Of a stretch of 64,000 nt of DNA, positions 25,632-49,953 are shown piece after piece. The position numbers and the translations under genes are program-made. Each line of letters opens with the position of its first letter. Position 1 is the stretch's first letter. Source of the DNA: Candidatus Poseidoniaceae archaeon (GTDB taxonomy: Archaea; Thermoplasmatota; Poseidoniia; Poseidoniales; Poseidoniaceae); the NCBI GenBank assembly GCA_938084675.1, contig CALKGM010000014.1, forward strand, positions 2,454 through 66,453, written 5' to 3'. The notes under the pieces are model-generated. The model did no database searches. It saw nothing but the letters and a program-made list of their open reading frames with translations, and was not told the origin of the DNA.

Positions 25632-25723
25632 TAGGATGTGAAATCATTCTTTATTAAAAGGCGATGACAGGAGAGCGACGAAGTTTTATGTGGATGAATC
25701 CTCCGGAGAGCGTAGGTGACACC

Positions 25724-33875: not shown

Positions 33876-34985
33876 GTGTGCACCTTGTATTCGACACGAA
33901 AGTTAACGCTTTTTGCCGTTATTATGCTCGCCATGTCCTTGCCGTTAACCGCTTCTTCACAAGTCCCTACTGCCCCAGGTGTTGAGATTGATTGCGATGA
34001 AAAGAAGCCTAAGATCGATGTCCGTCCACCCAACAGTAACCCCGAAGTTCAAATTACTTGCACGTTGACAAATCCTTCATCATTTGAAGAGCAAATTAGT
34101 GTTGACAAAGAATGGGACGGCGTGGAAATTGAAATGACTCTTGAAGATGATTCATTCACTCTTGCCCCTGGAGATGAAGAGGACTTCACCGTCACCTTTT
34201 CTGGGCAAAGCAGGCTCGCAGCAGATTTATTGTACGATTTTACCCTCGTTGCTACTGTGACAAATGTTGCCAGTTTGGATTGGCCTGAAGCACTTGCTAG
34301 CAATGCTACGGTTGAAGGTGAACTGGGTATTGAAGTGTTTGGAATGGTGGACCTCAGTGTTGCTGACAAGAGTACTCGGACGCTGAGTTCTGCCGAAGAA
34401 ATACCTCTGACGTTCCAAGCACAAAATAACGGAAACAGCAACGATGATATCCGGATTGTCGTGGAGAATCAAGACGAACTCGAAGAGGCAGGATTCACAT
34501 TCCCTGGCGGAGCAACCCTTACGGTATCTGTCGACAAGGGTTCAACTTCTGATACACTCGAATTCACCCTTCGTTCACCCTCAAGTATTCCTGAAGATGT
34601 CCGTTATCAAATCACACTCCAGGCTTCAAGTGTAAACGATGCCGACGCAACTCTTAGTGAAACCACTCTCAGTATTCAACTTGAAGCCAACACTGGTGCG
34701 GGCAGTCTCGGTGGAGGCCTTGAAGAGTTAAGTAAAGACGACGCAGTCCTCTATGGTGGAATCGCTGCAGCAGGACTGTTTGGCATCATTCTCATTGTGG
34801 CGCTGAGTAAAGCACTCCGAAAGCGTGCGGACTCACAACCAATGTATGTCCCACCCGTTGAGGTTGATGACGAAGAAGAAACTGAAGCAGAATTTGACTT
34901 CGGGGATTTGGATGATGATCTTGATGATCTTGACGATATGATGGATGATGTTGATGATTTGGATGATGTCTTTGCAGACTTGTAA
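33876..34985 (+). CDS. Secreted surface protein with C-terminal TM anchor and poly-acidic tail
   Basis: GTG start, signal-like LTLFAVIMLAMSLPLTASS, TM GGIAAAGLFGIILIVALSKALRKR, and tail DDEEETEAEFDFGDLDDDLDDLDDMMDDVDDLDDVFADL. Confidence 0.5.
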   Translation: MCTLYSTRKLTLFAVIMLAMSLPLTASSQVPTAPGVEIDCDEKKPKIDVRPPNSNPEVQITCTLTNPSSFEEQISVDKEWDGVEIEMTLEDDSFTLAPGDEEDFTVTFSGQSRLAADLLYDFTLVATVTNVASLDWPEALASNATVEGELGIEVFGMVDLSVADKSTRTLSSAEEIPLTFQAQNNGNSNDDIRIVVENQDELEEAGFTFPGGATLTVSVDKGSTSDTLEFTLRSPSSIPEDVRYQITLQASSVNDADATLSETTLSIQLEANTGAGSLGGGLEELSKDDAVLYGGIAAAGLFGIILIVALSKALRKRADSQPMYVPPVEVDDEEETEAEFDFGDLDDDLDDLDDMMDDVDDLDDVFADL

Positions 34986-35107: not shown

Positions 35108-35899
35108 ATGCTGAGTTTAGAAGGGAAAACAGCGTTTGTCTTCGGCGTAGCTAGCGAAGACTCCATCGCTTGGGCTATTTGTCAACAACTTGCAGCAGCA
35201 GGAGTGACCCTCTACCTGGGTTATCAGAAGCGATTCATGAGCCGCGTGTTCCAATTGAAGGACCAACTTCCATCAATCGGAGGATTCTATCCTCTTGATG
35301 TTGCATCAGATGCGACCACACAGGAATTCTTCGATGCCTTCGCTCAAGACCATCCTGGCAAGAAAGCAGACATTCTCATCCACGCCATTGGATTTGCCCC
35401 AAGAGCATGCTTCGACCGCCCGATTCTCTTTGTTGAAGGAGAGGACATCAATACGGCAATGACTATTTCTGCAAATTCGTTACAGCGATGTTTGAAACAC
35501 GCCCTACCTTACTTGAATCCGGGTTCATCCACGGTAACGTTGACGTATGCAGCCGCAAACCGATATGTCCCAAATTACGGTATCATGTCCATGGCTAAGG
35601 CTGCTTTGGAATGCTGGACGCGTGAACTTGCATGCCATCTCGGCCCTGAAGGTCACCGAGTGAACGCCATTTCATCTGGGCCTATACGGACCATTGCAGC
35701 GGGGGGCATACCCGGATTTGACCGAATCTTAGACCATGTTGAGGCCAATGCCCCTCTCCGGAGAAACGTCAGTCAACAGGATGTCGCTGGTGCAACACTT
35801 TGGCTCTCCAGTCCACTTTCTTCTGGAGTTACGGGCCAGTGCATTTACGTTGATGCGGGCTACTCAATTACGATGGTGCCGGAAAGTATCATGAATTAA
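35108..35899 (+). CDS. fabI: Enoyl-[acyl-carrier-protein] reductase, FabI type
   Basis: LEGKTAFVFGVASEDSIAWAI, YxxxxxK region (MSMAKAALE) and RVNAISSGPIRT are the FabI-subfamily SDR pattern. Its stop lies 1 nt before the megasynthase start. Confidence 0.8.
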   Translation: MLSLEGKTAFVFGVASEDSIAWAICQQLAAAGVTLYLGYQKRFMSRVFQLKDQLPSIGGFYPLDVASDATTQEFFDAFAQDHPGKKADILIHAIGFAPRACFDRPILFVEGEDINTAMTISANSLQRCLKHALPYLNPGSSTVTLTYAAANRYVPNYGIMSMAKAALECWTRELACHLGPEGHRVNAISSGPIRTIAAGGIPGFDRILDHVEANAPLRRNVSQQDVAGATLWLSSPLSSGVTGQCIYVDAGYSITMVPESIMN

Positions 35900-35900
35900 G

Positions 35901-38900
35901 GTGAATAACATGACGATTACCACTCAAGACGGCAAGGCATGCGAGGGTCTCGAACAGGGCCCCTTTGAACCGATTGCGGTCGTGGGCGTGGGCGCTCTGA
36001 TGCCTGATGCCCCGGATATTGACGCCTTTTGGCAGAACATCATTGAGAAAAAAATCAGTATTGCGCCCCTGCCTGAAGGGAGGTGGCCAGGGCCCGTCAA
36101 TCACTTTTGGAAAGAAGGAGGTCCTGGGCAACACACCGAGGGATTCACCTACTCAAAAATCGGTGCTCTCGTCAAAGGTGATGAGTTTGATTGGCGCAGA
36201 TGGCGTCAACCTCCTGGGACGCTCCCTCAGATTGACCCCTGTCAACTATGGGCGGTCACAGTTGCGGCCGACGCAATAGAGCACGCAGGTTACGGTGCTG
36301 AGACAAAAGACATCGACCGCTCCAAAACTGGAGTTGTTTTCGCGAATGCATTGGGTGGAGAAAACCGAAATCTCTCCAACATACGTGTTTGGTCAAACCA
36401 CACGAAAGAAACCGCTATTTCTCACGGGATGCCTTCAGGGAATGCTGAATCCTTTGTAGCGAACATCAACGAAGGAACTCCGCGTGTTGACGAAGACACC
36501 ATGCCTGGCGAACTCGCAAACGTTGTTTCGGGTCGCGTTGCAAATCTCCTTGACTTGCAAGGGCCGAATCATGCCATGGATGCGGCATGCGCATCATCAA
36601 TGGCTGCTGTTTTGGATGCATGCAGATTGCTCCAAACCCGCCAAGTCGACGTGATGCTAGCCGGAGCAACAGACCGGACGATGGATCCAGCCACCTTCGC
36701 TAAATTCTCAGCCATCGGGGCGCTCTCTCCAACCCATTCATCTCCGTTTGATGCTCGTGCGAATGGATTTGTGATGGGAGAGGGTGCAGGCGTATTGGTC
36801 CTCAAGCGGTTGAACGATGCAATCGAGTCCGGCGATGAAATTTACAGTGTCATCAGAGGTATCGGCGGTTCTTCTGACGGACGCGGTAAAGGCATCACGG
36901 CACCAAGTCAAAGGGGGCAGATACAAGCTATCGCTCGGGCTTACAATCAAGCAGGTTATCCCGCATCTTCTGTAGAATTGGTCGAGGCTCATGGAACTTC
37001 AACAAAGGTTGGAGATGCAACAGAATTGTCAACACTATCTCGCCTTTGGACGGGTCTTGGTGGGACTGGGAAGGTAGCAGTTGGTTCAATTAAATCTCAA
37101 ATTGGCCACCTTAAGGCTGCGGCTGGAATTGCAGGAATCATGAAAACGGTCATGGCGTTGCATCACCGCACCATACCTCCAAGTGCAAATTTTGAAACTC
37201 CCAATCCTACAGTTGATTGGTCCAACATACCGTTTTTCGTACCGACCGAGGCGCTTGAGTGGCCTAGGCCAAGCGATAATCCCCGACGTGCTGGAGTTTC
37301 CGCATTCGGGTTTGGAGGGACCAACTTCCACATCGCTCTTGAGGGATACGAACCTGATGTGCATCGCCCTCTTGCTTCAGAATGGGAGATGCGCTGGAGC
37401 GCTTATTCTCGTTCTGCACCAAAGACTATGGCGGCTTCAATCCTTGATGTCAACGCCACCCCGTCAATGAATCATGAAGCGTTGAAATCCATCGAAGGGG
37501 GTCTCCTCCTTCTTTCTTCAGCCAGTGTCGGAGGATTGAAGGATGCTCTTGCGGCCTTAGAATTTACAGGCGCACGGTTTGATGAAGATCCCCGAGGACG
37601 CAGACTGTCAGAAGCCCTTCAAACGGCGAGCCAATCCTATGATGCAAAGGCCGATGCTAGAATGGCCCTTATCGCTACATCTTGGGCCGAATTTGACAAG
37701 AGGGTAGGCTTGGCTCTCAAGGCGATGGATGATTCTGAAAAGTGGGGATTCCTTCAATCACAAGGCGTTCTTATCAGTTCTGAACCTTCATTGCCTGCTG
37801 AAGCAAAGGTTGCTCACATGTATCCCGGTCAAGGAAGCCAATATGTTGGGATGACCAACGACCTCGTCAAACGCTTTTCACCTGCTGCCTCGGTTTGGGA
37901 ACAAGCCGACATAACGATGGTTGATGTGTTGGACGGAGAGTCACTCTCCAGTTTCGTTTTGAGAGATTCGTTAAGCGCTGAAGAACGAACAGAGGCTGAG
38001 CATAAACTGAAGCAAACAGAGTATACTCAACCCGCCATGCTTACTGCTGACCTCGCCATTGAACGCACTCTGAATGCGTTCGGACATCACCCTGACATGG
38101 TCGCTGGCCATTCCCTTGGAGAATATGCGGCCTTGATGTCTTCGGGAATCTTGGACATGGACGGGGCGCTCCGAGCTGCTGCTGCCCGCGGCACAGAAAT
38201 GGGCTCGGTTGAAATTGACGACAAAGGGCTCATGGCAAGCGTAACAGCTCCCTATGAAGAGGTTGCAGCAATTTTGGAATCGACAGAAGGTTACGTCATC
38301 GCAGCCAACAAAAACTCGCCTAAAATGACCGTAATTGCGGGAGAAACAGAACCCGTTCGGGCAGCTATGGCTGCTTTTGAATCCAAGGGATTCAACAGTG
38401 TTGAACTCGCAACATCTCACGCCTTCCACTCTCGCATTGTCGCTCCTGCAAACGAGCCATTGCGTCGGTTCTTAGAGGGGCTAGAAATTCGCTGGCCTAG
38501 CATTCCAATTACGGCAAATGTGGACGGGAGTTTCTATCCGATGGACGGAGCAGACTCGAAGGCTGGAATTTTGAACCAACTTGCTCCTCAAATGGCCTCT
38601 GCTGTTGAATGGACCAAGCAAATTGAAACCATGTACGATGCAGGAGGGCGTGTTTTCCTTGAAGTTGGGCCAAAACGTGCTCTGACGATGTTTGCCATGC
38701 AAATTCTAGAGGGCCGCCCACACGTACCCATCATGTCCAATCACCCTAAACAAGGTGGTATTGCGACATTCCTGACGGCGTTGGGGGCGCTTGCGCTCGC
38801 CGGCCGTCCACCTCAATGGCCGGATTCCAATTCAGAAGTCTTGAGTGAAGCCTTCAGGGCTGGGCCTATTGAAGCTCACCAGGAACAGGTAACGGCGACG

Positions 38901-41900
38901 GGAGCATCCTCGGCTGAGCTTGAATCTCTCCGCGTTAGGGCAAGACCTCTTCCAAACGGCGGTGGCTCTGCAATTGCATCCGTTCAATCCATAGTTCAAC
39001 CGCCTGCGATTGACAGCGAGTTTGCTCTTGAGCGAGCAATTCGTGCTTATGTCGGCGACCGGATTGGAACATTCAGCAATTATCCTGCATCGTTCTGTCA
39101 CGGGCACGTTATGCTTCGTGAAGGCTTGGGCTTGAATGAATCTTCCATCCAACAAGTGATTTCAACACTGGCTGCAGAAGCAGAAACCGATGGGGAATAC
39201 GATGCGAGCAAGGCCCAAACAGCCGGCGATCTGGCTCGTTGGGTACGCATGCCCCCTTCTTCATGGACGCCAATGTCTACCGTCACTGCTCCTGCTCAAT
39301 TGCAACAACAACACATCGTTCAAACAACTTCTGCAGTGCACTCTCGTTCTGGCTCAACCAGAGATGTCGACCCGTTCGTAATCACTGGAGTCTCCCTTGG
39401 ACTGCCCGGTATGGACCGAGTCTTTTCAGAAGATACATTTGAGAAACTCGTACGAGGGGAAACATGCATCAGTGAGGTCTCTGATGAGTATAAACAACGA
39501 CTGTTGGATAAGAACATTGTACGCTTGATCAAAGGTCGGGACGGCTCAGTGAATATGGACCAGGCAACCGTATTCGGAGACATCCCTCAACTTGCAGGAA
39601 TCAAAGGTGCGTTTGACCTCTCCGAAGAGTTCGGAATTGACCCGAAAGCAGTCTTGGCTTGGGATATCAGCACTCAGTTGTCGGTTGCTGCTGGATTGTT
39701 AGCACTTCGCGACGCAGGTATACCGCTAACTCCAGTTGAACAAGTTGGAAAAGGGGGTCTTCGGCTCATTAGAAACTGGCAGGTTCCACAAATCCAACGT
39801 GAACGAACCGGTATTGTATTTTCATCGTGTTTCCCAGGTTTGCAAATGGCTTCAAAGCATGCAAAAACCAACGGAGATGATGGCGAAGGGCGATTTGACC
39901 GTCGTTATCTCTTCCAAGCCCTCAACATGGGGCATTCACAATTTGCCCAATATACGGGAATACGTGGGCCCAACACAACAATCAATCTTGCATGTGCATC
40001 TGCTACAGCAGCTTTTGGTGTTGCTGAGGACTGGCTTGAGAACGACAGAGTGGACCGCGTTGTCATCATCAGTGGAGACGACGTAACCGGTGACGACCTT
40101 TGGGAATGGATTGCAGGTGGATTCGCAGCATCAGGAGCGGCTGCAACGAACAATGTTGTTGAGGAGACGGCTTTACCCTTTGACCGCCGCCGTAATGGAC
40201 TTATTCTCGGAATGGGGGCCGCAGCGTTTGTTGTTGAACGTCATTCTGAAGCCAAGCAACGTGGTGTTCAGCCGATTGCAGAATTCCTCGGCTCCACAAC
40301 TGCAAACTCTGCCTACCACGGAACTCGGCTTGACGTCGAACATGTAGGTGAAATCGTCAACGGTTTCATCACTTCAATGGAACAACGATGGGACATTAAC
40401 CGACATGAAATCGCTCCCAAGACGGTCTTCTTTTCCCACGAAACCTACACTCCGGCACGTGGTGGTTCTGCTCAATCCGAAGTCAAAGCACTCCGAGAAA
40501 CCTTTGGAGAATCTACGGATAAGCTCGTCATTGCCAATACTAAAGGATTCACAGGACACCCAATGGCGGTAGGTATTGAAGACGCAAGCATGTTTTATGG
40601 AATGCTCACTGGGCGTATTCCCCCGATTGCTAATCACAAAGAACAGGACCCCGAATTAGGTGATTTGAATCTTTCAAAAGGTGGCGACTACCCTGAACTT
40701 CAGTATGGTCTTCGTTTTGCAGCAGGGTTTGGTTCACAAATTGCACTTTCGCTGGTTCGTCGTTGGCCCATTGAAGGTGAGCGAATCAACGGGGCAGTCT
40801 TGTTGGCTTGGGCCAGGAACCTTGCGGGAACAGATGACGTAGTGATGCGGGTCCTTCAGAATAAACTCGTAGCATACGTCAATGGTGATGACAATCTCCA
40901 TGGCGGGGTACAAGGAGATACTTGGCAACCTACAGAGGACTGGGAGGGTAAGCCATCGATTCAGCCCGAAGTGCCCGCTCCGAACCCTGTACATGAGCCC
41001 GCTCCGAGTCCAGTGGTTGCACCTTCCTCTCCATCCGCACGGGCAGTCGCTGCTCCGATTGCAACCGATGAATCCACCGTTCAAACGGTGATTGATGTCG
41101 TTGTGACTCACACTGGATATCCGTCTGACTTCATTGAGTTGGACCAAGATTTAGAGGGTGAACTCGGCATTGATACCGTTAAGCAAGCGGAAATTATGGC
41201 CGACATTAGAGAAAAATTTTCACTTCCAGTGGATGAAGATTTCATCCTATCAGACTATCCAACGTTGAATCACATGATCTCGTACATTCAACAGATGACG
41301 GGGGGGGAAGTTCCTGCACCTCTTCCTCAACCGCCCGTATCTTCCTCAGTTGCGGCTAAAGAGGTCGTTGCGGACATGAAGCCATTGGCTTCGCCCACAT
41401 CGGTAGTAGACGACGCATCCATGCGAGACATCGTCGTTGAAGTTGTCGTTGAACATACAAAGTATCCAGCCGACTTCATTGAGTTGGACCAAGATTTGGA
41501 AGGAGAACTTGGTATTGATACCGTCAAACAAGCGGAAATCATGGCGGATATCCGAGAACGTTTCTCTCTTCCAATCGATGAAGACTTTGTTCTCTCGGAT
41601 TATCCAACCTTGAACCACATGATGGGTTACATCCAAAAGATGCAGGGAGGGACTGTCCCAACACCAGAACCACCTGCTGCTCCAGCAGGATATGTTGAGT
41701 CCACTCCCGCTCCTGCTGAGGTTGTCACATCAGTACAACCGCCCGTAGCAACAGGGACTAATCCCGATATTGAAGCAGTTCTTATCGAAGTTGTCGTTGA
41801 GCATACTGGTTATCCTGCCGACTTTATTGAAATGGACCAAGATTTAGAGGGTGAACTCGGCATTGATACTGTCAAACAAGCGGAAATCATGGGGGATATC

Positions 41901-44705
41901 CGAGAACGGTTCACGCTTCCAGTCGATGAGGACTTTGTTCTCTCTGACCACCCAACCTTGAACCATTTCACTGCCTACATCATCAAAATGACGGGTGGCG
42001 TATCTTCGGATGCTCCTCTTCCGGTTGAACCAACTGAGGAGTCCCCAGCAATTCCCGATGAACACTCCGGAGTATCTTTCGGAACTCGTCGCTGGCAGGT
42101 TGAAGTTGAAGACTGCACCGGTATTCCAGCCCCACTTTCCATCGACGGCACCGTGGTTGTCACTGATGATGGATGGGGGATTGCAGAGGCCTTCTGTCAA
42201 CGTATGGATGCCCGAGGGCTCCATGCAGTCCGTGTTGGGTTTGAGAGTCGTATTCGTGACCCATCCGTTCTTGACGAAGGTGGACGAACCGTCTACAGAG
42301 CAGACCCAGAGCAACCCGAGCACCTCGCATGGATATGTGAACAACTCAAGGCTACATCCATCGGGGCCCTGATTCACATGGCTCCAATAAAAATCGCATC
42401 GGCCCAATGGGAAGAAGATACGATACCATCCTCACAAATTGCTCTAGCTGGTCACGGTTGGTTTGCGTTACTCAAAGAATTGAATCACCATCTTTCTGAC
42501 CAAAAGCCAGCCATCATTGCCTCTGTTACCGCTATGGACGGCCGCCATGGAAACATTGGTGAGCGTTTCAATTCCATTCAGTGTGCTGCCTCAGGCGTGA
42601 CCAAATCCTATGCCTTTGAGCGACCGGACTTGCGGTGTAGAGCAATTGACCTTCATCCGGATATCCTGTTCGAAGATGGAGAGGCTGCAAAGCAAATTGA
42701 ACATGATCTGTTCGAACTTGGCGGAGAAGTTGAAATTGGTTTGGACCGAGATGGGCGACGATGGGCTCTTGTTGCATTTGCCGAGAATCTCGTGGAAGAC
42801 CCCAAATCCTTGACCAAGGAAGATACGTGGCTGGTTTCTGGCGGTGGCTCGGGAGTTACTGCCGCATCGGTTATCGGTGTTGCACAAGCCAGTCCAAATG
42901 CAGGGGCGCACTTCATTCTTCTCGGGCGTTCATCGTTAATTGAATCAACACAATCGTGGATTGGTTGGACCAAAGAGCAACTTTCAGACGAAAAGAATGC
43001 ACTACGAGAACGCCTGGTTGAAGGTTCGGAGAATGGCAAAGTTACCATGGTTGAATGGAATTCTTCATGGCAGAAGTTTACCCGGAGCATGGATGTTTAC
43101 ATCACGATTGACACCATACAACAGACTGGTAATACGGCGGAATATCGTTCCGTGAATGCCATGGACCATGACGCTCTTGTATCTCTTGGAGAAGGACTTG
43201 AATCACCCATTACTGGAATTATCCACGGTGCTGGATTGGAAGACTCCAAACTTGTGAGCGACAAATCTCATGAGATCTTTGACAGAGTTGTGCGTGTCAA
43301 AGTCGATGGATGGCGAGCACTGCTTGGCGCAGTACAGGCTTCTGGCCGAGACTATCCGGAGTTTGCAGCATGTTTCACAAGTGTAGCTGGCCGTTTCGGC
43401 AATGGTGGGCAAACTGACTATGCAGCGGCGAATTCTGTTCTTGATGCAGAGATGTCACGGCTCACTGCAAGTTCCTCATGCCGAGCAGTAGCCATCGGAT
43501 GGACCGGTTGGAGGGATGTCGGCATGGCCACACGTGGTTCAATTGAAGCCGTCTTTGAAGCGGCAGGAATTGAAACGCTTTCGGTTGAAGATGGCGTCAA
43601 GATCTTCGTTGATGAAGCTCTTCGCGGTGGAAAGCGAAGAGTCCTTGGTTGCGGCTCTCTCGGTCTTATGGACCGATTTGATTCGTTCAGGGAGGCTCCG
43701 TTGAAATTGCCCCCCGGTATGGCCGGAACCATTGCTGACCCTGCCCGCTTTCCTTTCATTGACAAGGTATTGAGTCTGGTAGAAGGTTCCCATATGACAA
43801 CGCAATGCACGCTTTCGGTCGAAGACCATCCGTTCCTGACCGACCATGCGATTGACGGTGTCCCATACCACCCTGGTGTTATGGCGCTTGAGATGTTTGC
43901 ACAAAGTTCCCTTCTTTTACGCCCATCAACCTGCTTAGCAGGCTTTGAAGGGGTCACGTTTGGCCTACCTGTTAAACTGATGAAAGGGCCAATGACGGTT
44001 CGTGTAATCGCCCAACTTGACCGTCAAGAAGATGATATGACATGGATAAAGTGTTCTTTAGTTTCGGACCTGACCAATTCCAAAGGGGAAGTGTTCGGTG
44101 AACGAGAACACCACGTTGCGACCGTAAGATTGGTAGAAAAGTGCGAAGACCTTTGTCCATTCCTACAACGAGAAGTCGATGAACTGCCGGCGATTGGAAT
44201 TCCTCCTTCTGGAGAACTCGTCCAAAATCCAGCATTCATTTACATGCGCTATTTCCACGGAGCACGATTCCAATCGCATGGGGGCGTGTTGCGAGGTGTT
44301 GGTGACGAAGAAATGCCTGGGATTGACGGACTGGCTTTGATGCGACACCAGCTCCCTCTTACGGACCAATTCTCAAGTGAATCCAAAGGAGAAGCCGTTC
44401 TATTGGAGGCCCTTCCAATGCTGATTGAAGCCGGTTTCCAAAATGCAGGCTTGGTCGCAATGGAGTCTAAGGGTTTCAGCAGTCTACCGGTTGGTATTGG
44501 ATGGTCTACCATGCTTCGTGTGCCAGAGAACGATGAAACCCTCCGTCTAAGAAGCATACAAACCTCCTCTGATGAAGAAGGTGTTACGGTTCATGATGTT
44601 GTCATTGTTGGTGATGATGATGCCCCGATTCTGGCGATGAAAGGCTTGAGGCTGAAGGCGATGGCTCCAGTTGCTGACGAACAGAAATTCGAATTCAATC
44701 GCTAA
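35901..44705 (+). CDS. Type I FAS/PKS-like megasynthase (PfaA-like), 2934 aa: KS-AT-[ACP-like]-KS-ACP-ACP-ACP-KR-DH
   Basis: A single open frame (GTG 35901 or ATG 35910) containing every domain signature listed in the sub-features below. Confidence 0.9.
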   Translation: MNNMTITTQDGKACEGLEQGPFEPIAVVGVGALMPDAPDIDAFWQNIIEKKISIAPLPEGRWPGPVNHFWKEGGPGQHTEGFTYSKIGALVKGDEFDWRRWRQPPGTLPQIDPCQLWAVTVAADAIEHAGYGAETKDIDRSKTGVVFANALGGENRNLSNIRVWSNHTKETAISHGMPSGNAESFVANINEGTPRVDEDTMPGELANVVSGRVANLLDLQGPNHAMDAACASSMAAVLDACRLLQTRQVDVMLAGATDRTMDPATFAKFSAIGALSPTHSSPFDARANGFVMGEGAGVLVLKRLNDAIESGDEIYSVIRGIGGSSDGRGKGITAPSQRGQIQAIARAYNQAGYPASSVELVEAHGTSTKVGDATELSTLSRLWTGLGGTGKVAVGSIKSQIGHLKAAAGIAGIMKTVMALHHRTIPPSANFETPNPTVDWSNIPFFVPTEALEWPRPSDNPRRAGVSAFGFGGTNFHIALEGYEPDVHRPLASEWEMRWSAYSRSAPKTMAASILDVNATPSMNHEALKSIEGGLLLLSSASVGGLKDALAALEFTGARFDEDPRGRRLSEALQTASQSYDAKADARMALIATSWAEFDKRVGLALKAMDDSEKWGFLQSQGVLISSEPSLPAEAKVAHMYPGQGSQYVGMTNDLVKRFSPAASVWEQADITMVDVLDGESLSSFVLRDSLSAEERTEAEHKLKQTEYTQPAMLTADLAIERTLNAFGHHPDMVAGHSLGEYAALMSSGILDMDGALRAAAARGTEMGSVEIDDKGLMASVTAPYEEVAAILESTEGYVIAANKNSPKMTVIAGETEPVRAAMAAFESKGFNSVELATSHAFHSRIVAPANEPLRRFLEGLEIRWPSIPITANVDGSFYPMDGADSKAGILNQLAPQMASAVEWTKQIETMYDAGGRVFLEVGPKRALTMFAMQILEGRPHVPIMSNHPKQGGIATFLTALGALALAGRPPQWPDSNSEVLSEAFRAGPIEAHQEQVTATGASSAELESLRVRARPLPNGGGSAIASVQSIVQPPAIDSEFALERAIRAYVGDRIGTFSNYPASFCHGHVMLREGLGLNESSIQQVISTLAAEAETDGEYDASKAQTAGDLARWVRMPPSSWTPMSTVTAPAQLQQQHIVQTTSAVHSRSGSTRDVDPFVITGVSLGLPGMDRVFSEDTFEKLVRGETCISEVSDEYKQRLLDKNIVRLIKGRDGSVNMDQATVFGDIPQLAGIKGAFDLSEEFGIDPKAVLAWDISTQLSVAAGLLALRDAGIPLTPVEQVGKGGLRLIRNWQVPQIQRERTGIVFSSCFPGLQMASKHAKTNGDDGEGRFDRRYLFQALNMGHSQFAQYTGIRGPNTTINLACASATAAFGVAEDWLENDRVDRVVIISGDDVTGDDLWEWIAGGFAASGAAATNNVVEETALPFDRRRNGLILGMGAAAFVVERHSEAKQRGVQPIAEFLGSTTANSAYHGTRLDVEHVGEIVNGFITSMEQRWDINRHEIAPKTVFFSHETYTPARGGSAQSEVKALRETFGESTDKLVIANTKGFTGHPMAVGIEDASMFYGMLTGRIPPIANHKEQDPELGDLNLSKGGDYPELQYGLRFAAGFGSQIALSLVRRWPIEGERINGAVLLAWARNLAGTDDVVMRVLQNKLVAYVNGDDNLHGGVQGDTWQPTEDWEGKPSIQPEVPAPNPVHEPAPSPVVAPSSPSARAVAAPIATDESTVQTVIDVVVTHTGYPSDFIELDQDLEGELGIDTVKQAEIMADIREKFSLPVDEDFILSDYPTLNHMISYIQQMTGGEVPAPLPQPPVSSSVAAKEVVADMKPLASPTSVVDDASMRDIVVEVVVEHTKYPADFIELDQDLEGELGIDTVKQAEIMADIRERFSLPIDEDFVLSDYPTLNHMMGYIQKMQGGTVPTPEPPAAPAGYVESTPAPAEVVTSVQPPVATGTNPDIEAVLIEVVVEHTGYPADFIEMDQDLEGELGIDTVKQAEIMGDIRERFTLPVDEDFVLSDHPTLNHFTAYIIKMTGGVSSDAPLPVEPTEESPAIPDEHSGVSFGTRRWQVEVEDCTGIPAPLSIDGTVVVTDDGWGIAEAFCQRMDARGLHAVRVGFESRIRDPSVLDEGGRTVYRADPEQPEHLAWICEQLKATSIGALIHMAPIKIASAQWEEDTIPSSQIALAGHGWFALLKELNHHLSDQKPAIIASVTAMDGRHGNIGERFNSIQCAASGVTKSYAFERPDLRCRAIDLHPDILFEDGEAAKQIEHDLFELGGEVEIGLDRDGRRWALVAFAENLVEDPKSLTKEDTWLVSGGGSGVTAASVIGVAQASPNAGAHFILLGRSSLIESTQSWIGWTKEQLSDEKNALRERLVEGSENGKVTMVEWNSSWQKFTRSMDVYITIDTIQQTGNTAEYRSVNAMDHDALVSLGEGLESPITGIIHGAGLEDSKLVSDKSHEIFDRVVRVKVDGWRALLGAVQASGRDYPEFAACFTSVAGRFGNGGQTDYAAANSVLDAEMSRLTASSSCRAVAIGWTGWRDVGMATRGSIEAVFEAAGIETLSVEDGVKIFVDEALRGGKRRVLGCGSLGLMDRFDSFREAPLKLPPGMAGTIADPARFPFIDKVLSLVEGSHMTTQCTLSVEDHPFLTDHAIDGVPYHPGVMALEMFAQSSLLLRPSTCLAGFEGVTFGLPVKLMKGPMTVRVIAQLDRQEDDMTWIKCSLVSDLTNSKGEVFGEREHHVATVRLVEKCEDLCPFLQREVDELPAIGIPPSGELVQNPAFIYMRYFHGARFQSHGGVLRGVGDEEMPGIDGLALMRHQLPLTDQFSSESKGEAVLLEALPMLIEAGFQNAGLVAMESKGFSSLPVGIGWSTMLRVPENDETLRLRSIQTSSDEEGVTVHDVVIVGDDDAPILAMKGLRLKAMAPVADEQKFEFNR
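35964..37350 (+). other. Megasynthase domain: ketosynthase 1
   Basis: PIAVVGVGALMP, active-site DAACASS (Cys230, codon 36588..36590), EAHGTSTKVGD, SIKSQIGHLKAAAG and FGFGGTNFHIAL. Confidence 0.9.
37809..38700 (+). other. Megasynthase domain: acyltransferase (malonyl-type)
   Basis: YPGQGSQY, GHSLGE (Ser738, codon 38112..38114), and an HAFH motif (aa 840-843) of the malonyl-specific type. Confidence 0.85.
39030..39250 (+). other. Megasynthase segment: cryptic ACP-like helical segment with degenerate attachment motif
   Basis: IRAYVGDRIGTFSNYPASFCHGHVMLREGLGLNESSIQQVISTL...TAGDLARWV follows carrier-protein spacing, but GLNES replaces GxDS. Confidence 0.3.
39369..40770 (+). other. Megasynthase domain: ketosynthase 2 (Cys-His-His retained)
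   Basis: FVITGVSLGLPG, INLACASATAAF (Cys1365, codon 39993..39995), FFSHETYTPARGG and NTKGFTGHPMAVG. Confidence 0.8.
41070..41991 (+). repeat. Three tandem ACP-domain repeats (period 345-348 nt) inside the megasynthase
   Basis: The unit DFIE(L/M)DQDLEGELGIDTVKQAEIM(A/G)DIRE(K/R)F(S/T)LP(V/I)DEDF(I/V)LSD(Y/H)PTLNH occurs three times. The attachment-site position is Thr in each copy (codons ACC 41175, ACC 41520, ACT 41868; aa 1759, 1874, 1990). Linkers are Pro/Ala-rich. Confidence 0.85.
42150..43625 (+). other. Megasynthase domain: ketoreductase (with N-terminal structural subdomain)
   Basis: TWLVSGGGSGVTAA (NADPH Rossmann), SVAGRFGNGGQTDYAAANSVLD (catalytic Tyr/Asn) and IGWTGW. Confidence 0.8.
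43749..44690 (+). other. Megasynthase domain: PKS-type dehydratase (double hotdog)
   Basis: HPFLTDHAIDGVPYHPGVMALE is the HxxxGxxxxP motif, with His2649 at codon 43845..43847. Confidence 0.75.
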
Positions 44706-44716
44706 GCGGTGAGGCT

Positions 44717-45484
44717 ATGGAATCCGATGTCGTTCTCCTCGATGTCCCTCCATCTTTTTCAAAACACGTACGGGTTTATTCAATGCCAATCCGACATTTT
44801 GAGTGTGATGATGTCCCGCTTGCAAATGCCGACGAGGTAGCGACCTTTGCTACTTCAAAGCGAAACGATGAGCATCTCAGTGGAAGGTGGTTGTTGGGAC
44901 ATTGTCTCGGGCTGTGGGGTGTTAAGGATCTCTCCGTACTCGATATTGTACGTGACGAACACAGAGCGCCTCGGGTCGTGTTTTTACAAGGAATGTGGCT
45001 CAATACCCCCCTTCCTTCGTTTTCTATCTCGCACAGTAATGGCCATGTCTTCCTCGCTTTATGTGAGTCTGAGTTTGATATTGGTTTTGATGCTGAACCT
45101 GCTGAACGCTCTCTTGCTTCAAATGCCTTTGATATGATTTCTACAGGTTTGGAATTGGAACAATTACGTATGAATCCTGATTCATCAATGATGTTGTGGA
45201 CCAGCAAAGAAGCCGTGCAAAAAGCAATGCGAAAAGGCATGCATTTGAACCCGAGAGAAATCAAAATTTCAATTGGAGATTTAGAACAAAATATTTCAAT
45301 TGAAAAATCAATAATTCAATTGGGAAATTGGACTCAAAAAGGGTATCAAATGGCTCTCGCCCTCCGCCAAAAACCCTCCGTGTATTTAACCGCTGAAGAG
45401 CGCTTGTTAGAGTCCACTCGCCTCGCTATGCTAGACCGACCTGATTGGGGTGTCGGCTGCAACACGAATCGGAATAACGTCTGA
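44717..45484 (+). CDS. Sfp-type 4'-phosphopantetheinyl transferase
   Basis: FSISHSNGHV, IGFDAEP and WTSKEAVQKAMRKG are the PPTase motifs. GGTGAGG lies 5 nt upstream of the ATG, which is 11 nt after the megasynthase stop. Confidence 0.75.
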   Translation: MESDVVLLDVPPSFSKHVRVYSMPIRHFECDDVPLANADEVATFATSKRNDEHLSGRWLLGHCLGLWGVKDLSVLDIVRDEHRAPRVVFLQGMWLNTPLPSFSISHSNGHVFLALCESEFDIGFDAEPAERSLASNAFDMISTGLELEQLRMNPDSSMMLWTSKEAVQKAMRKGMHLNPREIKISIGDLEQNISIEKSIIQLGNWTQKGYQMALALRQKPSVYLTAEERLLESTRLAMLDRPDWGVGCNTNRNNV

Positions 45485-45950: not shown

Positions 45951-47588
45951 TCAAGAGCAGGAAGAAAAGCGGGCTTCAGTATTGATTGCATCAGCGTATA
46001 ATGAAAGAGGTAGAACAGGCGTTCCATCGGACCACTTGCCCATTTCTGTCAACGTTTCCTCTTCCGTCATGTACTGGAACGCCCAATCAGCGGTAAAGGT
46101 GTCGTTTCGCCCATGCGCTACCAAAAAGTCAGCTTGTGCGTCAAATCGTCGATAGACACCCCAATCCGCTAGTCTGTCGTATGCAGGGTCGGTTTGCAGG
46201 TAATGGCTTGCCACCAGCCTGGGGAATCCATAGAGGTCTGAATGAACTTCTATGAGTTGATTTCGTTCATCAGGGAGTTCACTGAACATCTGCTGATGGA
46301 AAGCTCCGGGGCAAACACCCACACTCATGTCATCTTCAGTCACTGCAATTTGGACCATCGTATCTTCTGGTAAATTGGACAAATCGGGTTGCATTGACAT
46401 CCCCTTTGGTCGACTCGCTGGCGATTCTAATGCTACCACGAGTGCACGAGAACCCCACCCCTTGGCCAAGACTTCATCCAAAGTGATGAACGTGTATGCC
46501 CCTCCCAAACTGTGGCCACCAACCCACAGGGAGGTCGGGTCAATGGTGATGTTTCCTAAGGTAGTATCGAGGGTTGTAGAGCGGTTTTCACCAAGCAACA
46601 TCGTCTCCATATGGTCAATAGCAGCCCGAATGGCTGTGTTACGGTATTCGTGCTGCAAGAAATCTGACGTGCCTTCAAGATCTGTTGCTTCAAAGGATTC
46701 GTAACCATCAGGCCGGAGGTCTGATGGATATTGTAAGAGGGCCACAGCCATTCCTTTGGCTGCCAGATGGTCTATCCAATGTGTGTAGGCGTCAGGGTCA
46801 GGGTAACCAAAACCGTGCAAGAGGATACCAAGCGGAATGGTCTCAACGGGTTTATCTTCGGGAATGAGGGGCAGTGTCACGTGAACACTGAAGACAACAT
46901 CATCTTCCAAATTGCCTTGGATTGCAGCAACATCGCTCGGCATGGGGTATGGTTCAGAAAACCTCATGATTTCATACGGGCCGGGAGTTGAACCGTAACC
47001 AATTGTTGGGGCGTCAGGAGGAGAAGGTGCGAATCCTACCAAAGCAGGGATTCCAGGCATTAACATCCATGCCGCCAAAAATACACCGAAAAGATGAGCA
47101 ACTCTTGCGGATGAAATTCCCTCTGATGCAGTCGTTCTCAATCGCGGCATGCCTCCTCGGAGCAGAAGGAGCCAAAGGAAAACCCAGGCATAGAACATAG
47201 GAAGCATAAGGAAGGCTCCCCTGAGGTAAAACACATCCATTACAAAATGAATCGAGATAAGACCACTCATCAAACCCACGAGCACCAAAAGGCCTTCATT
47301 TGCTTCTCGTTCATATTTGCTTTCTGATTTCCAGCGATTGATGAAGTAGCCAAGAACGGGTACAATCATGAACAGAATCAGCGTTTGTTCTGTGGATGAA
47401 CGAAGGACAACCGTCCACTCCAATGAACGAACAGCATGAGGCCAGATGGCATCGACCGCACCGGTGCCTTGTGCGAGGCGAACAATTACTTCACCTAACG
47501 CAAGAAGGAAGCCCAATGTGAAGAGGACTGGCTGCCAGAAAAACGATGTACGCCAGTACGAACTGGGTATGACGAACTCCTCTTCCAT
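45951..47588 (-). CDS. Membrane-anchored alpha/beta-hydrolase (lipase/esterase-like)
   Basis: The N-terminal ~190 aa are polytopic. The C-terminal domain has the nucleophile elbow WVGGHSLGGAY and resembles chlorophyllase/PAF-acetylhydrolase. Confidence 0.6.
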   Translation of the reverse strand: MEEEFVIPSSYWRTSFFWQPVLFTLGFLLALGEVIVRLAQGTGAVDAIWPHAVRSLEWTVVLRSSTEQTLILFMIVPVLGYFINRWKSESKYEREANEGLLVLVGLMSGLISIHFVMDVFYLRGAFLMLPMFYAWVFLWLLLLRGGMPRLRTTASEGISSARVAHLFGVFLAAWMLMPGIPALVGFAPSPPDAPTIGYGSTPGPYEIMRFSEPYPMPSDVAAIQGNLEDDVVFSVHVTLPLIPEDKPVETIPLGILLHGFGYPDPDAYTHWIDHLAAKGMAVALLQYPSDLRPDGYESFEATDLEGTSDFLQHEYRNTAIRAAIDHMETMLLGENRSTTLDTTLGNITIDPTSLWVGGHSLGGAYTFITLDEVLAKGWGSRALVVALESPASRPKGMSMQPDLSNLPEDTMVQIAVTEDDMSVGVCPGAFHQQMFSELPDERNQLIEVHSDLYGFPRLVASHYLQTDPAYDRLADWGVYRRFDAQADFLVAHGRNDTFTADWAFQYMTEEETLTEMGKWSDGTPVLPLSLYADAINTEARFSSCS

Positions 47589-49103: not shown

Positions 49104-49769
49104 TCAATACGGAACGTCTTTCCATCCGATTTTGTAGCCGATGAGGTTGAAACTTCGGTGCAATATCGGGGTGATGAGGATGAGGAGAATCATTGGAAGG
49201 CGTAATTCTGATGCGGCGAGGACAGATGAGCCTAGGAACAGTTGACCGAAGAGGAATACCATGATTGCAAACGGTAGCGTGTCGAGCAAGGGGGCTTTTG
49301 AGGAAACATCGCCTTCTCGCTTTAGGCCACGTCGTCGCTTTACGAATGAGCCTGTGCTGTCGCCAAGAAGGCAGGCGAAACCTAAGAATGAGCCGAGAAT
49401 AAACGCTGTAAGGTTCGTTCCACCCAATTCAAACCATGCTCCAGATGAGCCAGTTAGCGGGGATGCAAACACGGTTGACCCGTCGTTAAACACAGTCCCC
49501 ATGCCTCCATTGTCTACTGCCGCTACCATGGCCATGCAGAGAAGTCCTGAGGTCATAGAGCCTCCAATGAGCCCATTCCATGTCTTGCCGTCTCCAAGAA
49601 TCCGGTTTCCATCACTCCAAACTTTGCCTCCGTCAATGGGCCAAGGTCCATATCCTGTCTTTGGTAGCCACTTTCCCCACATCATTGCAAACGTATTGGC
49701 TAGGAAGCCTGGAAGGTAGAGCCACAAGGTGAGCAAGCAAAGGAATAACAAATTCATGAGGACAACCAA
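49104..49769 (-). CDS. carS: CDP-archaeol synthase (DUF46/CarS family)
   Basis: LPGFLANTFAMMWGK...PIDGGKVWSDGNRILGDGKTWNGLIGG...GSFVKRRRGLKREG...LLDTLPF matches the CarS pattern (PID.G...DG.R.LG..KT..G ; SF.KRR ; LD.L.F). Confidence 0.7.
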   Translation of the reverse strand: MVVLMNLLFLCLLTLWLYLPGFLANTFAMMWGKWLPKTGYGPWPIDGGKVWSDGNRILGDGKTWNGLIGGSMTSGLLCMAMVAAVDNGGMGTVFNDGSTVFASPLTGSSGAWFELGGTNLTAFILGSFLGFACLLGDSTGSFVKRRRGLKREGDVSSKAPLLDTLPFAIMVFLFGQLFLGSSVLAASELRLPMILLILITPILHRSFNLIGYKIGWKDVPY

Positions 49770-49882
49770 CGCAACCGTTTAGGATACATCCAGTTGTCGT
49801 ACCGGATAGCATTTGATTGTTGCGAGGTATGCAGGTCAATGGTGCTGAATCCCAACGCTTTCGCAGAATTGGAGCCAAAAGG

Positions 49883-49953
49883 TGCGGATAGCGGGAGTTG
49901 AACCCACGACAAAAGGTTGGAAACCTCCTATGATACCACTTCACCATATCCGC
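49883..49953 (-). tRNA. tRNA-Gly (anticodon UCC)
   Basis: The revcomp reads GCGGATA-TG-GTGA-AGTGGTA-TCAT-A-GGAGG-TTTCCAA-CCTTT-TGTC-GTGGG-TTCAACT-CCCGC-TATCCGC-A. All four stems pair and the T-loop is TTCAACT. CCA is not encoded. Confidence 0.85.

What the first reader, a model, noticed from the sequence alone, without database searches (positions are those of the whole stretch)
41070..41991. All three tandem carrier domains carry Thr instead of the canonical phosphopantetheinylated Ser (GIDTVKQAE)
Seen directly: the helix-II start motif, normally (D/G)LGxDS(L/I), reads GELGIDTVKQAEIM in all three repeats. The Thr codons are ACC at 41175, ACC at 41520 and ACT at 41868. No Ser lies anywhere nearby in the motif. 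The repeats differ at many synonymous and linker positions (roughly 80-85 percent nt identity by eye) yet keep Thr, which argues for selection rather than sequencing error. By established knowledge, PPTases transfer 4'-phosphopantetheine to a conserved Ser. The inference splits three ways. The adjacent PPTase may modify Thr, the prosthetic-group chemistry may differ, or these may be non-canonical carrier or scaffold domains.
Basis: partly seen in the sequence, partly recalled or inferred. Interest (0 to 1): 0.7.

Follow-up and report, generated by a model that had tools for sequence, protein, structure and literature searches.

The report
Carrier domains with threonine attachment site
A giant fatty-acid/polyketide-type synthase of a marine archaeon carries three acyl-carrier domains whose cofactor-attachment serine is a threonine, and this proves to be the conserved hallmark of a large, undescribed synthase family in many bacteria and archaea that often keeps its own cofactor-loading enzyme next door.

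Summary
Three tandem ACP domains (window 41070-41991) read GELGIDTVKQAE, with Thr codons at 41175, 41520 and 41868. The Thr aligns with the phosphopantetheinylated Ser of solved ACPs and is the first residue of helix II in a confident model.

It is not a quirk of this gene. All 373 ACP motifs in 120 Marine Group II (Poseidoniales) orthologues carry Thr. An exhaustive search found 81 all-Thr, 55 all-Ser and 7 mixed proteins among the 143 closest cluster representatives.

Thr tracks one architecture, KS-AT-KS2-ACPn-KR-DH. It occurs in Poseidoniales, Heimdallarchaeota, Acidobacteriota, Actinomycetota, Chloroflexota, Myxococcota, Elusimicrobia and others. Two Ser variants are nested inside Thr clades, and no other Ser is conserved in the domain.

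An Sfp-type PPTase with intact catalytic motifs lies directly downstream here and in at least 15 related loci. It is fused to the synthase C-terminus in others.

Best reading (about 0.7): Thr is the phosphopantetheine attachment site of functional carriers in a type I FAS-like synthase. This is inferred, not shown biochemically. I found no literature describing it. I rate it a new variant of a known kind, interest about 0.72.

The parts
35108..35899 (+). FabI-like enoyl reductase, abutting the synthase start. It is the presumed trans-acting ER.
   Evidence: Pfam adh_short_C2 at 235 bits. The best NCBIfam hits are FabI models, all below their equivalog cut-offs. The same gene lies upstream of the synthase in Poseidoniales loci L042, L047 and L109.
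35901..44705 (+). 2934-aa megasynthase with the domain order KS1-AT-(variable segment)-KS2-ACP-ACP-ACP-KR-DH.
   Evidence: ORF list, Pfam domains and translation. It is 97% identical to P0121, and all 120 best hits are Poseidoniales-type orthologues. Catalytic motifs are invariant in 41 aligned sequences.
35967..37442 (+). KS1 ketosynthase, with the DAACAS Cys and both His residues.
   Evidence: Pfam PF00109, PF02801 and PF16197 over aa 23-514. The motifs are conserved 41/41.
37818..38804 (+). Acyltransferase domain with GHSLGE and HAFH, the malonyl-type motifs.
   Evidence: Pfam PF00698 over aa 640-968. The motifs are conserved 41/41. The malonyl specificity of HAFH is from established knowledge.
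38988..39350 (+). It is not a conserved carrier.
   Evidence: The segment is poorly conserved among 41 orthologues. It has no PF00550 hit and no hit to the ACP profile.
39393..40970 (+). KS2, a second FabF-like ketosynthase with an intact Cys-His-His triad. It is the domain whose presence tracks the Thr-type ACPs.
   Evidence: Second stretch of PF00109 and a weak ACP_syn_III match. The motifs LACASA, SHET and TGHP are conserved 41/41. KS2 is present in Thr-type representatives and absent from the PfaA-type and DSIKKAQLF-type Ser proteins.
41070..41303 (+). ACP domain 1. Thr codon ACC at 41175-41177.
   Evidence: helix II starts at the Thr.
41406..41648 (+). ACP domain 2. Thr codon ACC at 41520-41522.
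41757..41990 (+). ACP domain 3. Thr codon ACT at 41868-41870.
42018..43730 (+). Ketoreductase region: a structural part plus the catalytic part, with the DYAAAN Tyr.
   Evidence: Pfam PF08659 over aa 2401-2539. The motif is conserved.
43752..44675 (+). PKS-type dehydratase with an HxxxGxxxxP motif.
   Evidence: Pfam PF21089 and PF14765. The motif is conserved.
44717..45484 (+). Sfp-type 4'-phosphopantetheinyl transferase, 12 nt downstream of the synthase stop.
   Evidence: Pfam PF01648 at 30.2 bits against a cut-off of 25. The AF2 model has pLDDT 89.7. Foldseek top hits are AASDHPPT 2cg5, Sfp 4mrt and PptT, at E values from about 1e-10 to 1e-6. A homologue sits in the same position in L003, L061, L080, L090, L100, L017 and several Chloroflexota loci.
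45951..47588 (-). Alpha/beta-hydrolase-like protein next to the PPTase. It is a possible release or transfer enzyme. Its membership in the system is uncertain.
   Evidence: Weak Pfam Abhydrolase_6 match at 25.4 bits, below the 26.3 cut-off. The same neighbour, 70% identical, follows the PPTase in Poseidoniales-type locus L080.

Best explanation
The three domains are working acyl carrier domains of an iterative type I FAS/PUFA-synthase-like megasynthase (KS1-AT-KS2-ACP3-KR-DH) of a Marine Group II archaeon. A FabI-like enoyl reductase acts in trans. In this family the 4'-phosphopantetheine arm is attached to the hydroxyl of a Thr at the N-terminus of helix II, in place of the usual Ser. The co-encoded Sfp-type PPTase loads it from CoA by the ordinary mechanism: a Mg2+-bound CoA diphosphate, a Glu general base, and attack of the side-chain hydroxyl on the beta-phosphate. 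The tandem copies act in parallel to raise throughput, as in PUFA synthases.

Shown here: the Thr sits at the exact attachment position. Thr is conserved family-wide. Exchange is restricted to Ser. The PPTase is syntenic or fused. All catalytic sites are intact.

Inferred: that Thr is actually modified, that this PPTase does it, and that the product is a fatty-acyl chain.
For: 1. Position. The Thr aligns to the modified Ser of solved ACPs and starts helix II in a model with pLDDT above 90 per domain. The ACP fold is confirmed.

2. Selection. Thr occupies 373 of 373 ACP motifs in 120 orthologues spanning 67-97% identity. All four Thr codons are used across 120 genome loci: ACC 152, ACG 128, ACT 16, ACA 13. 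The window repeats differ at 19-30 synonymous sites per pair.

Among 605 ACP domains of the 143 closest 50%-cluster representatives, found by a search without a word index, 342 have T and 258 have S. Only three domains have another residue (A, D or G), each a single copy within a multi-ACP protein, and two are gapped at that column.

4. Proteins are all-T (81) or all-S (55). Two Ser variants, P0375 and P0378, are nested inside Thr clades on a KS2 tree. So the T/S state switched in all copies together at least twice within one orthologous family.

5. The T-type and S-type domain consensus sequences are nearly identical outside this column. T-type domains have no other conserved Ser.

6. PPTase linkage. 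An Sfp-type PPTase with intact catalytic motifs lies immediately downstream here. A homologue lies in the same place in at least 15 Thr-type loci from Poseidoniales, Heimdallarchaeota and Chloroflexota. In P0303, P0330 and P0360 it is fused to the C-terminus of Thr-type synthases, as confirmed by Pfam. In this window the three Thr domains are the only sequences that match an ACP profile, which does detect control ACPs.

7. The rest of the enzyme is under purifying selection as a working synthase. The KS1, AT, KS2, KR and DH catalytic motifs are invariant in 41 orthologues. ACP copy number varies from 2 to 7 as in PUFA synthases.
Against: There is no biochemical evidence of any kind. No mass-spectrometry or structural datum shows phosphopantetheine on Thr, here or, to my knowledge, anywhere else. 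From memory and unverified here, Ser-to-Thr substitution of E. coli ACP Ser36 was reported not to be modified by AcpS.

I found no residue in the PPTase that consistently distinguishes Thr-lineage enzymes from Sfp or from the PPTase of the Ser variant L123. So there is no visible adaptation to the extra methyl group.

Many bacterial Thr-type loci show no PPTase within the 8 kb held, although the tblastn used is insensitive at 22-30% identity. The KS2 tree is a simple neighbour-joining tree without support values.
Confidence: 0.7

Rival explanations
1. The Thr domains are never phosphopantetheinylated. They are structural or scaffold copies of ACPs, and the synthase works on CoA-bound substrates or on a separate carrier protein.
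For: Canonical PPTases are described as Ser-specific (established knowledge). No adaptation to Thr is visible in the PPTase. Archaea are known to run ACP-independent fatty-acid chemistry (2024 bioRxiv preprint, abstract seen).
Against: The recognition helix DTVKQAE is the most conserved part of the domain, at 94-100%. Only Thr or Ser is tolerated at the site. Copy number varies as it does for functional tandem carriers. A PPTase is kept adjacent or fused although Thr domains are the only ACP-like sequences in cis. No other carrier is detectable in the window. Scaffold domains would not need a hydroxyl at exactly this position.
Confidence: 0.1
2. The Thr hydroxyl is used, but for different chemistry. 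Either it carries a different prosthetic group, or the acyl chain is held directly as an oxoester on Thr.
For: The requirement for a hydroxyl (T or S only) fits any O-linked modification. Thr-type ACPs co-occur strictly with an extra KS2 domain, which hints at a family-specific mode of operation.
Against: The associated transferase is a standard Sfp-type PPTase, with the CoA/Mg2+ motifs and the catalytic Glu and Lys intact. KS, AT, KR and DH are ordinary thioester-handling domains with canonical active sites. The domain is otherwise almost identical to PfaA-type Ser ACPs. Ser variants within the family argue for the same chemistry as in ordinary ACPs.
Confidence: 0.08
3. Phosphopantetheine is attached elsewhere: to another Ser in the domain, to the 39030-39250 segment, or to a stand-alone ACP encoded elsewhere in the genome.
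For: Each window repeat has a Ser in LSD(Y/H)PTL. The rest of the genome could not be searched.
Against: That Ser is not conserved in the family, where the consensus is LrDYPTL. No column other than the attachment column has Ser at 30% or more in 342 Thr-type domains. The 39030-39250 segment is not conserved and is not ACP-like. No other ACP-like ORF is found in 64 kb. Archaea generally lack ACP (established knowledge; Lombard et al. 2012, cited in PMC7852524).
Confidence: 0.04
4. Artefact: sequencing or assembly error, a pseudogene, or homogenisation of one chance mutation by gene conversion.
For: Tandem repeats can be homogenised by gene conversion.
Against: The open frame is intact over 2934 codons. 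The motif is identical in hundreds of independent assemblies from many phyla. The repeats are only 69-77% identical, with many synonymous differences.
Confidence: 0.01

Closest known systems
PfaA subunit of bacterial polyunsaturated fatty acid (PUFA) synthases (TIGR02813), with tandem LGIDSIKRVEIL ACPs
   Same: It is the best NCBIfam match for the whole protein (845 bits) and for the ACP region. It shares the KS-AT...tandem ACP-KR-DH order, alanine/proline-rich disordered linkers between ACPs, variable ACP copy number, and a near-identical ACP consensus outside the attachment column.
   Different: The score is below the curated cut-off of 1010. A second active ketosynthase, KS2, is inserted between AT and the ACPs. 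The attachment residue is Thr and the helix II motif is DTVKQAE. No PfaB, PfaC or PfaD partners were seen; the neighbour is a FabI-like reductase instead. The host is an archaeon.
Enediyne PKSE-type iterative synthases (KS-AT-ACP-KR-DH-PPTase), known to self-phosphopantetheinylate (from memory: Zhang et al. 2008 PNAS)
   Same: The domain order ends in KR-DH, followed by an Sfp-type PPTase. The PPTase is fused in P0303, P0330 and P0360 and is adjacent here.
   Different: This family has an extra KS2, tandem rather than single ACPs, and Thr rather than Ser. The relationship was not tested by phylogeny here.
Doublet ACP of PigH in prodigiosin biosynthesis (PDB 5y08)
   Same: It is the best solved-structure match by sequence (E 1.6e-9) and by fold. 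Its ACPs are also tandem.
   Different: PigH ACPs have the canonical GxDS motif and sit in an unrelated pathway.
Sfp-type (group II) PPTases: Sfp, human AASDHPPT and PptT (for the neighbouring gene)
   Same: The fold matches. The H, D/E and WxxKE(A/S)xxK catalytic motifs are shared.
   Different: Sequence similarity is too low for any PDB hit by phmmer or any NCBIfam hit. The archaeal members have a conserved C-terminal tail, DWGVGCxTxRNN. The presumed substrate has Thr.

Membership tests
Acyl/peptidyl carrier protein domain (Pfam PF00550, PP-binding) | Sequence match to the family profile above the curated cut-off | tested here: met
   85 bits against a 20.8 cut-off, in three stretches.
Acyl/peptidyl carrier protein domain (Pfam PF00550, PP-binding) | Small helical-bundle ACP fold with the attachment residue at the N-terminus of helix II | tested here: met
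   The AF2 model has pLDDT above 90 per domain, and the Thr is the first residue of helix II. Foldseek matches to canonical ACPs give target TM-scores (TMt) mostly 0.8-0.88.
Acyl/peptidyl carrier protein domain (Pfam PF00550, PP-binding) | Conserved Ser in the (D/G)x(D)S(L/I) motif as the phosphopantetheine acceptor | tested here: not met
   Thr is present in all three domains, in 373 of 373 orthologue motifs and in 342 of 605 domains of the closest representatives.
Acyl/peptidyl carrier protein domain (Pfam PF00550, PP-binding) | Conversion to the holo form by a PPTase (+340 Da) | not testable with these tools
   This needs intact-protein or peptide mass spectrometry.
PfaA, polyketide-type PUFA synthase subunit (NCBIfam TIGR02813) | Whole-protein score at or above the curated cut-off of 1010.1 bits | tested here: not met
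   845.1 bits.
PfaA, polyketide-type PUFA synthase subunit (NCBIfam TIGR02813) | KS-AT-ACPn-KR(-DH) order with no second KS in the same chain | tested here: not met
   KS2 lies between AT and the ACPs. PfaA-type representatives with the DSIKRVEIL motif lack KS2.
PfaA, polyketide-type PUFA synthase subunit (NCBIfam TIGR02813) | PfaB, PfaC and PfaD partner genes in the cluster | tested here: not met
   The neighbours are a FabI-like reductase, a PPTase and an alpha/beta hydrolase. No KS-CLF-DH-DH protein or PfaD-type ER lies within the window ORFs scanned.
Sfp-type (group II) 4'-phosphopantetheinyl transferase (for ORF 44717-45484) | PF01648 match above the cut-off and a two-lobed Sfp-like fold | tested here: met
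   30.2 bits against a cut-off of 25. Foldseek matches 2cg5, 4mrt and PptT at about 1e-10 to 1e-6.
Sfp-type (group II) 4'-phosphopantetheinyl transferase (for ORF 44717-45484) | Catalytic motifs: His, GxDxE for Mg2+, and W/FxxKE(A/S)xxK | tested here: met
   SISHS, GFDAE and WTSKEAVQK are aligned to Sfp. They are invariant in 33 homologues: H106, D125, E127, W161, K164, E165 and K169.
Sfp-type (group II) 4'-phosphopantetheinyl transferase (for ORF 44717-45484) | Transfers phosphopantetheine from CoA to a carrier domain | not testable with these tools
   This needs an enzyme assay.

The most novel reading that the evidence does not exclude
O-(4'-phosphopantetheinyl)-threonine is a natural, widespread protein modification. 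It defines a previously unrecognised family of type I fatty-acid-synthase-like megasynthases (KS-AT-KS-ACPn-KR-DH, with or without PPTase). The family is present in at least seven bacterial phyla and in two archaeal lineages, Marine Group II and Heimdallarchaeota. In Marine Group II, which lacks G1P dehydrogenase, this synthase would be the route to fatty acyl chains for bacterial-type membrane lipids.
Probability: 0.55. Interest if true: 0.85.

Novelty: new variant of a known kind. Interest (0 to 1): 0.72.

Why it matters
Phosphopantetheinylation is described everywhere as a modification of Ser. Motif definitions, annotation rules, PPTase specificity models and carrier-domain activity predictions in genome mining all assume it. 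A large family of carriers that use Thr would have three consequences.

- It would add a new natural linkage and a new specificity problem for PPTases. That could be useful as an orthogonal carrier/PPTase pair.
- Genome-mining tools that call Ser-less carriers inactive would be misjudging a widespread class of synthases.
- It would point to a complete carrier-dependent fatty-acid-type synthase in Marine Group II archaea, among the most abundant archaea of the surface ocean, and in Heimdallarchaeota. Both groups are central to the lipid-divide debate. The main MGII genome papers do not mention this synthase.

Cultured carriers of the Thr-type synthase exist: Amycolatopsis sp. NPDC021455 and Mycolicibacterium xanthum Y57. 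The question is therefore directly testable.

Tried and rejected
- **Tandem Repeats Finder on 40800-42200.** It found nothing. The repeats are too diverged at DNA level, so I measured identity directly.
- **A hidden canonical carrier Ser in the 39030-39250 segment.** Rejected. The segment is not conserved, not matched by PF00550 and not matched by an ACP profile.
- **Another conserved Ser inside the Thr-type domain.** Rejected. No such column exists.
- **A PPTase residue that distinguishes Thr lineages from Sfp and from the Ser variant L123.** None was seen in a MAFFT alignment of 13 sequences. With a single Ser-lineage PPTase the test has little power.
- **phmmer of the PPTase against PDB sequences and NCBIfam.** No hits. 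Fold comparison was needed.
- **Literature.** Ten full-text searches covered threonine as phosphopantetheine site, the DTVKQAE motif, tandem ACP plus threonine, and MGII/Poseidoniales plus PKS or FAS. Nothing relevant turned up. The threonine mentions that I followed up by reading the passages concerned the residue after the Ser (the DST motif), KS active sites, TR catalytic triads or Ser/Thr kinases. Subscription journals are largely not covered.
- **Bias in the first homologue search.** It was biased toward Thr by its exact-word index, giving 252 T against 8 S. I therefore did not use it for frequencies and repeated the count with the index-free search.
Full report
**1. What is in the sequence**

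The finding lies inside a single 2934-codon ORF, 35901-44705 on the + strand. Pfam resolves it as KS, AT, a second KS-like region, three PP-binding stretches, KR and a PKS-type DH.

The translation of 41070-41991 shows three repeats, each containing GELGIDTVKQAEIM. The Thr codons are ACC at 41175, ACC at 41520 and ACT at 41868, exactly as reported.

The register is correct. phmmer alignments to solved carrier proteins place the Thr on the Ser of their D-S-(L/I/V) motif. These carriers are the PigH doublet ACP 5y08, B. subtilis ACP, spinach ACP and 2koo.

An AlphaFold model of the 307-residue region gives three confident helical domains (pLDDT above 90), joined by disordered linkers (pLDDT below 50). 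The Thr residues (36, 151 and 267) are each the first residue of helix II. The domains superpose on canonical ACPs with target TM-scores (TMt) mostly 0.8-0.88 and rmsd 1.4-1.8 A.

They have 19-30 synonymous codon differences per pair. Tandem Repeats Finder sees nothing at this divergence.

**2. Surroundings**

- A FabI-like enoyl reductase ends at 35899, two bases before the synthase starts.
- A 255-aa ORF at 44717-45484, 12 nt after the synthase stop, matches PF01648.
- That ORF has no PDB or NCBIfam sequence hit, but its AlphaFold model is confident (pLDDT 89.7). The model matches human AASDHPPT, Sfp and PptT by Foldseek at E values from about 1e-10 to 1e-6.
These residues are invariant in 33 homologues. 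It is therefore a catalytically intact Sfp-type PPTase.
- The window also holds a CarS-like CDP-archaeol synthase at 49104-49769 and a biotin carboxylase at 20107-21489.
- In all six frames of the 64 kb, only the three Thr domains match an ACP profile. That profile does detect E. coli and B. subtilis ACP controls.
It is not ACP-like.

**3. Whose gene it is**

The 120 best full-length hits share the same architecture and length (about 2800-3050 aa) and are 67-97% identical to the window protein. Every hit that carries a source name is labelled Poseidonia, Poseidoniaceae, Candidatus Poseidoniales or Euryarchaeota. The window therefore comes from a Marine Group II archaeon.

All 373 ACP motifs in these 120 proteins read LGIDTVKQAE. 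Of the 120 proteins, 103 have three ACPs, 15 have four and 2 have two. The catalytic motifs of KS1, AT, KS2, KR and DH are invariant in 41 aligned orthologues. The enzyme is evidently kept as a working synthase.

**4. How far the Thr goes**

My first homologue search with the ACP region returned almost only Thr motifs. That tool collects candidates by shared exact 5-residue words, so I did not use it for frequencies.

The index-free HMMER search of 1.84 billion cluster representatives gave 5457 hits at E up to 1e-3 and 671 at E up to 1e-30. In the 143 new representatives among the best 150, I located 605 ACP domains. Thr occupies the attachment column in 342 and Ser in 258. Three domains have another residue (A, D or G) and two are gapped.

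Per protein, 81 are all-Thr and 55 are all-Ser. Seven are 'mixed', each with a single aberrant, Ser-type or truncated copy.

Three motif classes emerge:
- DSIKRVEIL, the PfaA type.
- DSIKKAQLF.
- DTVKQAE(I/V/L/M)(F/M), the Thr class.

Outside the attachment column the Thr-type and Ser-type consensus sequences are almost the same. Thr-type domains have no other column with Ser at 30% or more.

A degenerate DNA pattern for G(I/V)DTVKQAE was scanned over one genome per GTDB species. The organisms include Poseidoniales, Heimdallarchaeota (among them the complete genome CP084166), Acidobacteriota, Actinomycetota, Chloroflexota, Myxococcota, Elusimicrobia, Gemmatimonadota and Rhodothermales. Two cultured strains are among them: Amycolatopsis sp. 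NPDC021455 and Mycolicibacterium xanthum Y57. All four Thr codons are used at the site: ACC 152, ACG 128, ACT 16, ACA 13.

**5. What Thr goes with**

tblastn of the window's domains on those loci shows the same order, KS1-AT-KS2-ACPn-KR-DH, almost everywhere.

Among the long cluster representatives, Thr-type ACPs co-occur with KS2. The PfaA-type and DSIKKAQLF-type Ser proteins lack KS2.

There are two exceptions with KS2 plus Ser:
- P0378 (motif DSVKVAEIF).
- P0375, an archaeal-like protein (motif GVDSVKQAEIM) whose contig also has a PPTase directly downstream.

On a neighbour-joining tree of KS2, both are nested inside Thr clades. P0375 is sister to the Poseidoniales clade, with the Thr-type P0250 outside them. 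P0378 groups with P0330 and P0269. The T/S state has therefore switched, in all copies of a protein together, at least twice within one orthologous family. The tree has no support values, so the count is provisional.

**6. The PPTase link**

A homologue of the window's PPTase lies directly after DH in at least 15 of the Thr-type loci. These are Poseidoniales-type L003, L061, L080, L090 and L100, Heimdallarchaeum L017, and Chloroflexota and other loci L007, L011, L029, L060, L068, L077, L089, L106 and L112.

BLAST hits to the window PPTase at the C-terminal end of several representatives suggest it is fused to the synthase there. Pfam confirms PF01648 in P0303, P0330 and P0360, together with PF17837 in P0303 and P0330. 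In those chains the only carriers in cis are Thr-type.

In two bacterial loci with wider flanks, an acyl-CoA-dehydrogenase-like gene sits where FabI sits in the archaeon. One of them also carries ETF genes, and a single-chain acetyl-CoA carboxylase follows the synthase. This fits a full reductive, malonyl-CoA-fed cycle.

**7. Interpretation**

The position tolerates only the two hydroxyl amino acids. It is the structural equivalent of the modified Ser. The domain has no alternative Ser. The recognition helix is the most conserved part of the domain. The catalytic domains are intact. A canonical PPTase is kept next to or inside the synthase, including in archaea, which as a rule have no ACP (established knowledge).

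The simplest reading is that Thr is the phosphopantetheine acceptor and that these are functional carriers of a type I FAS/PUFA-synthase-like enzyme. I put this at about 0.7. The missing piece is entirely biochemical.

Points against:
- PPTases are described as Ser-specific.
- From memory, E. coli ACP S36T is not a substrate of AcpS.
- I saw no PPTase residue that sets Thr lineages apart.

Rivals, all less likely for the reasons given in their entries:
- Unmodified scaffold domains (0.1).
- A different O-linked chemistry (0.08).
- Attachment elsewhere or to a trans ACP (0.04).
- Artefact (0.01).

Why Thr rather than Ser is unknown. Insulation from housekeeping PPTases or ACP hydrolases, or a more stable phosphodiester, are speculations I could not test.

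**8. Comparison with what is known**

The closest curated family is PfaA (TIGR02813). The window protein scores 845 bits, below the cut-off of 1010. It differs by the inserted KS2, the Thr, and the absence of PfaB, PfaC and PfaD partners.

The KR-DH-PPTase ending resembles enediyne PKSE synthases (from memory). I did not test that relationship.

Ten full-text searches and several targeted reads found no description of Thr as a phosphopantetheine site, of the DTVKQAE motif, or of this synthase.

The two main Marine Group II genome papers contain no mention of polyketide, acyl carrier, phosphopantetheine or ketoacyl. One of them does report that none of 270 MAGs encodes the enzyme that makes the archaeal glycerol-phosphate (G1P) backbone, while nearly all genera encode G3P dehydrogenase. 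[quoted passage not shown] The library covers few subscription journals, so an earlier report cannot be excluded.

**9. Verdict**

I class it as a new variant of a known kind, a carrier domain and synthase family with a Thr acceptor. Interest is 0.72.

Noticed in passing
window 35901-44705, with loci L001-L122: The synthase belongs to an apparently unnamed family with two active ketosynthases in one chain (KS1-AT-KS2-ACPn-KR-DH). It is found across many bacterial phyla and two archaeal lineages. It falls below the curated PfaA cut-off (845 against 1010 bits).
   Followed up: partly
L017 (CP084166, Candidatus Heimdallarchaeum aukensis, complete genome) and L050: Heimdallarchaeota (Asgard archaea) carry the same KS1-AT-KS2-ACP(Thr)-KR-DH synthase. 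In L017 a PPTase homologue follows it directly. This may matter for ideas on fatty-acid lipids in the archaeal ancestors of eukaryotes.
   Followed up: no
L001 3520-20347; L002 3285-18199: In bacterial Thr-type loci an acyl-CoA-dehydrogenase-like gene sits immediately upstream of the synthase, where the archaeon has FabI. L001 also has ETF alpha/beta and an Fe-S oxidoreductase upstream, and a 1881-aa single-chain acetyl-CoA carboxylase downstream. This suggests a non-homologous replacement of the enoyl reductase.
   Followed up: no
window 49104-49769 (-) and 49881-49953 (-): A CarS-like CDP-archaeol synthase gene (archaeal ether-lipid pathway) and a tRNA-Gly(TCC) lie only about 4 kb from the fatty-acid-type synthase cluster.
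   Followed up: no
window 20107-21489 (+): A biotin carboxylase (Biotin_carb_N, CPSase_L_D2 and Biotin_carb_C domains) lies 14 kb upstream. It is a possible part of a malonyl-CoA supply, but its carboxylase type was not determined.
   Followed up: no
window 45420-45484 (C-terminus of the PPTase): The archaeal PPTases share a conserved C-terminal tail, DWGVGCxTxRNN, with W244, G247 and C248 invariant in 33 homologues. The tail is modelled with low confidence and is absent from Sfp. The Ser-lineage PPTase of L123 ends with NFNVGCSAN. Its function is unknown.
   Followed up: no
window 38988-39350 (aa about 1030-1150 of the synthase): A variable segment between AT and KS2 has a faint ACP-like look (GLGLNESSIQQV) but no conservation and no profile match. 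It could be a decayed carrier or a docking element. Its structure was not predicted.
   Followed up: partly
proteins P0256, P0284, P0310, P0314, P0333, P0345, P0380: A third class of tandem-ACP synthases has the motif DSIKKAQLF (Ser) and roughly 500 extra residues between KS and AT. It has no KS2. One short homologue with this motif (P0081) is labelled Thermoguttaceae. The class was not characterised here.
   Followed up: no
proteins P0303 (TTDTT), P0330 (TTGT), P0305 (TTTTTTA): Occasional single ACP copies within Thr-type arrays have lost the hydroxyl residue (Asp, Gly or Ala). This is what one expects if individual copies in a redundant tandem array can decay.
   Followed up: no
window 45951-47588 (-); L080 7414-7998: A 544-aa alpha/beta-hydrolase-like protein (a weak Pfam match below the cut-off) is the conserved neighbour of the PPTase in at least one other Poseidoniales-type locus. 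It is a candidate release or transfer enzyme for a synthase that has no thioesterase domain.
   Followed up: partly
window 25664-31552 (+), 33876-34985 (+), 50015-55630 (-): Very large ORFs of 1962 and 1871 aa (the first with a weak CARDB match) and a 'choice-of-anchor T' family protein flank the cluster. They are probably surface proteins unrelated to the finding.
   Followed up: no
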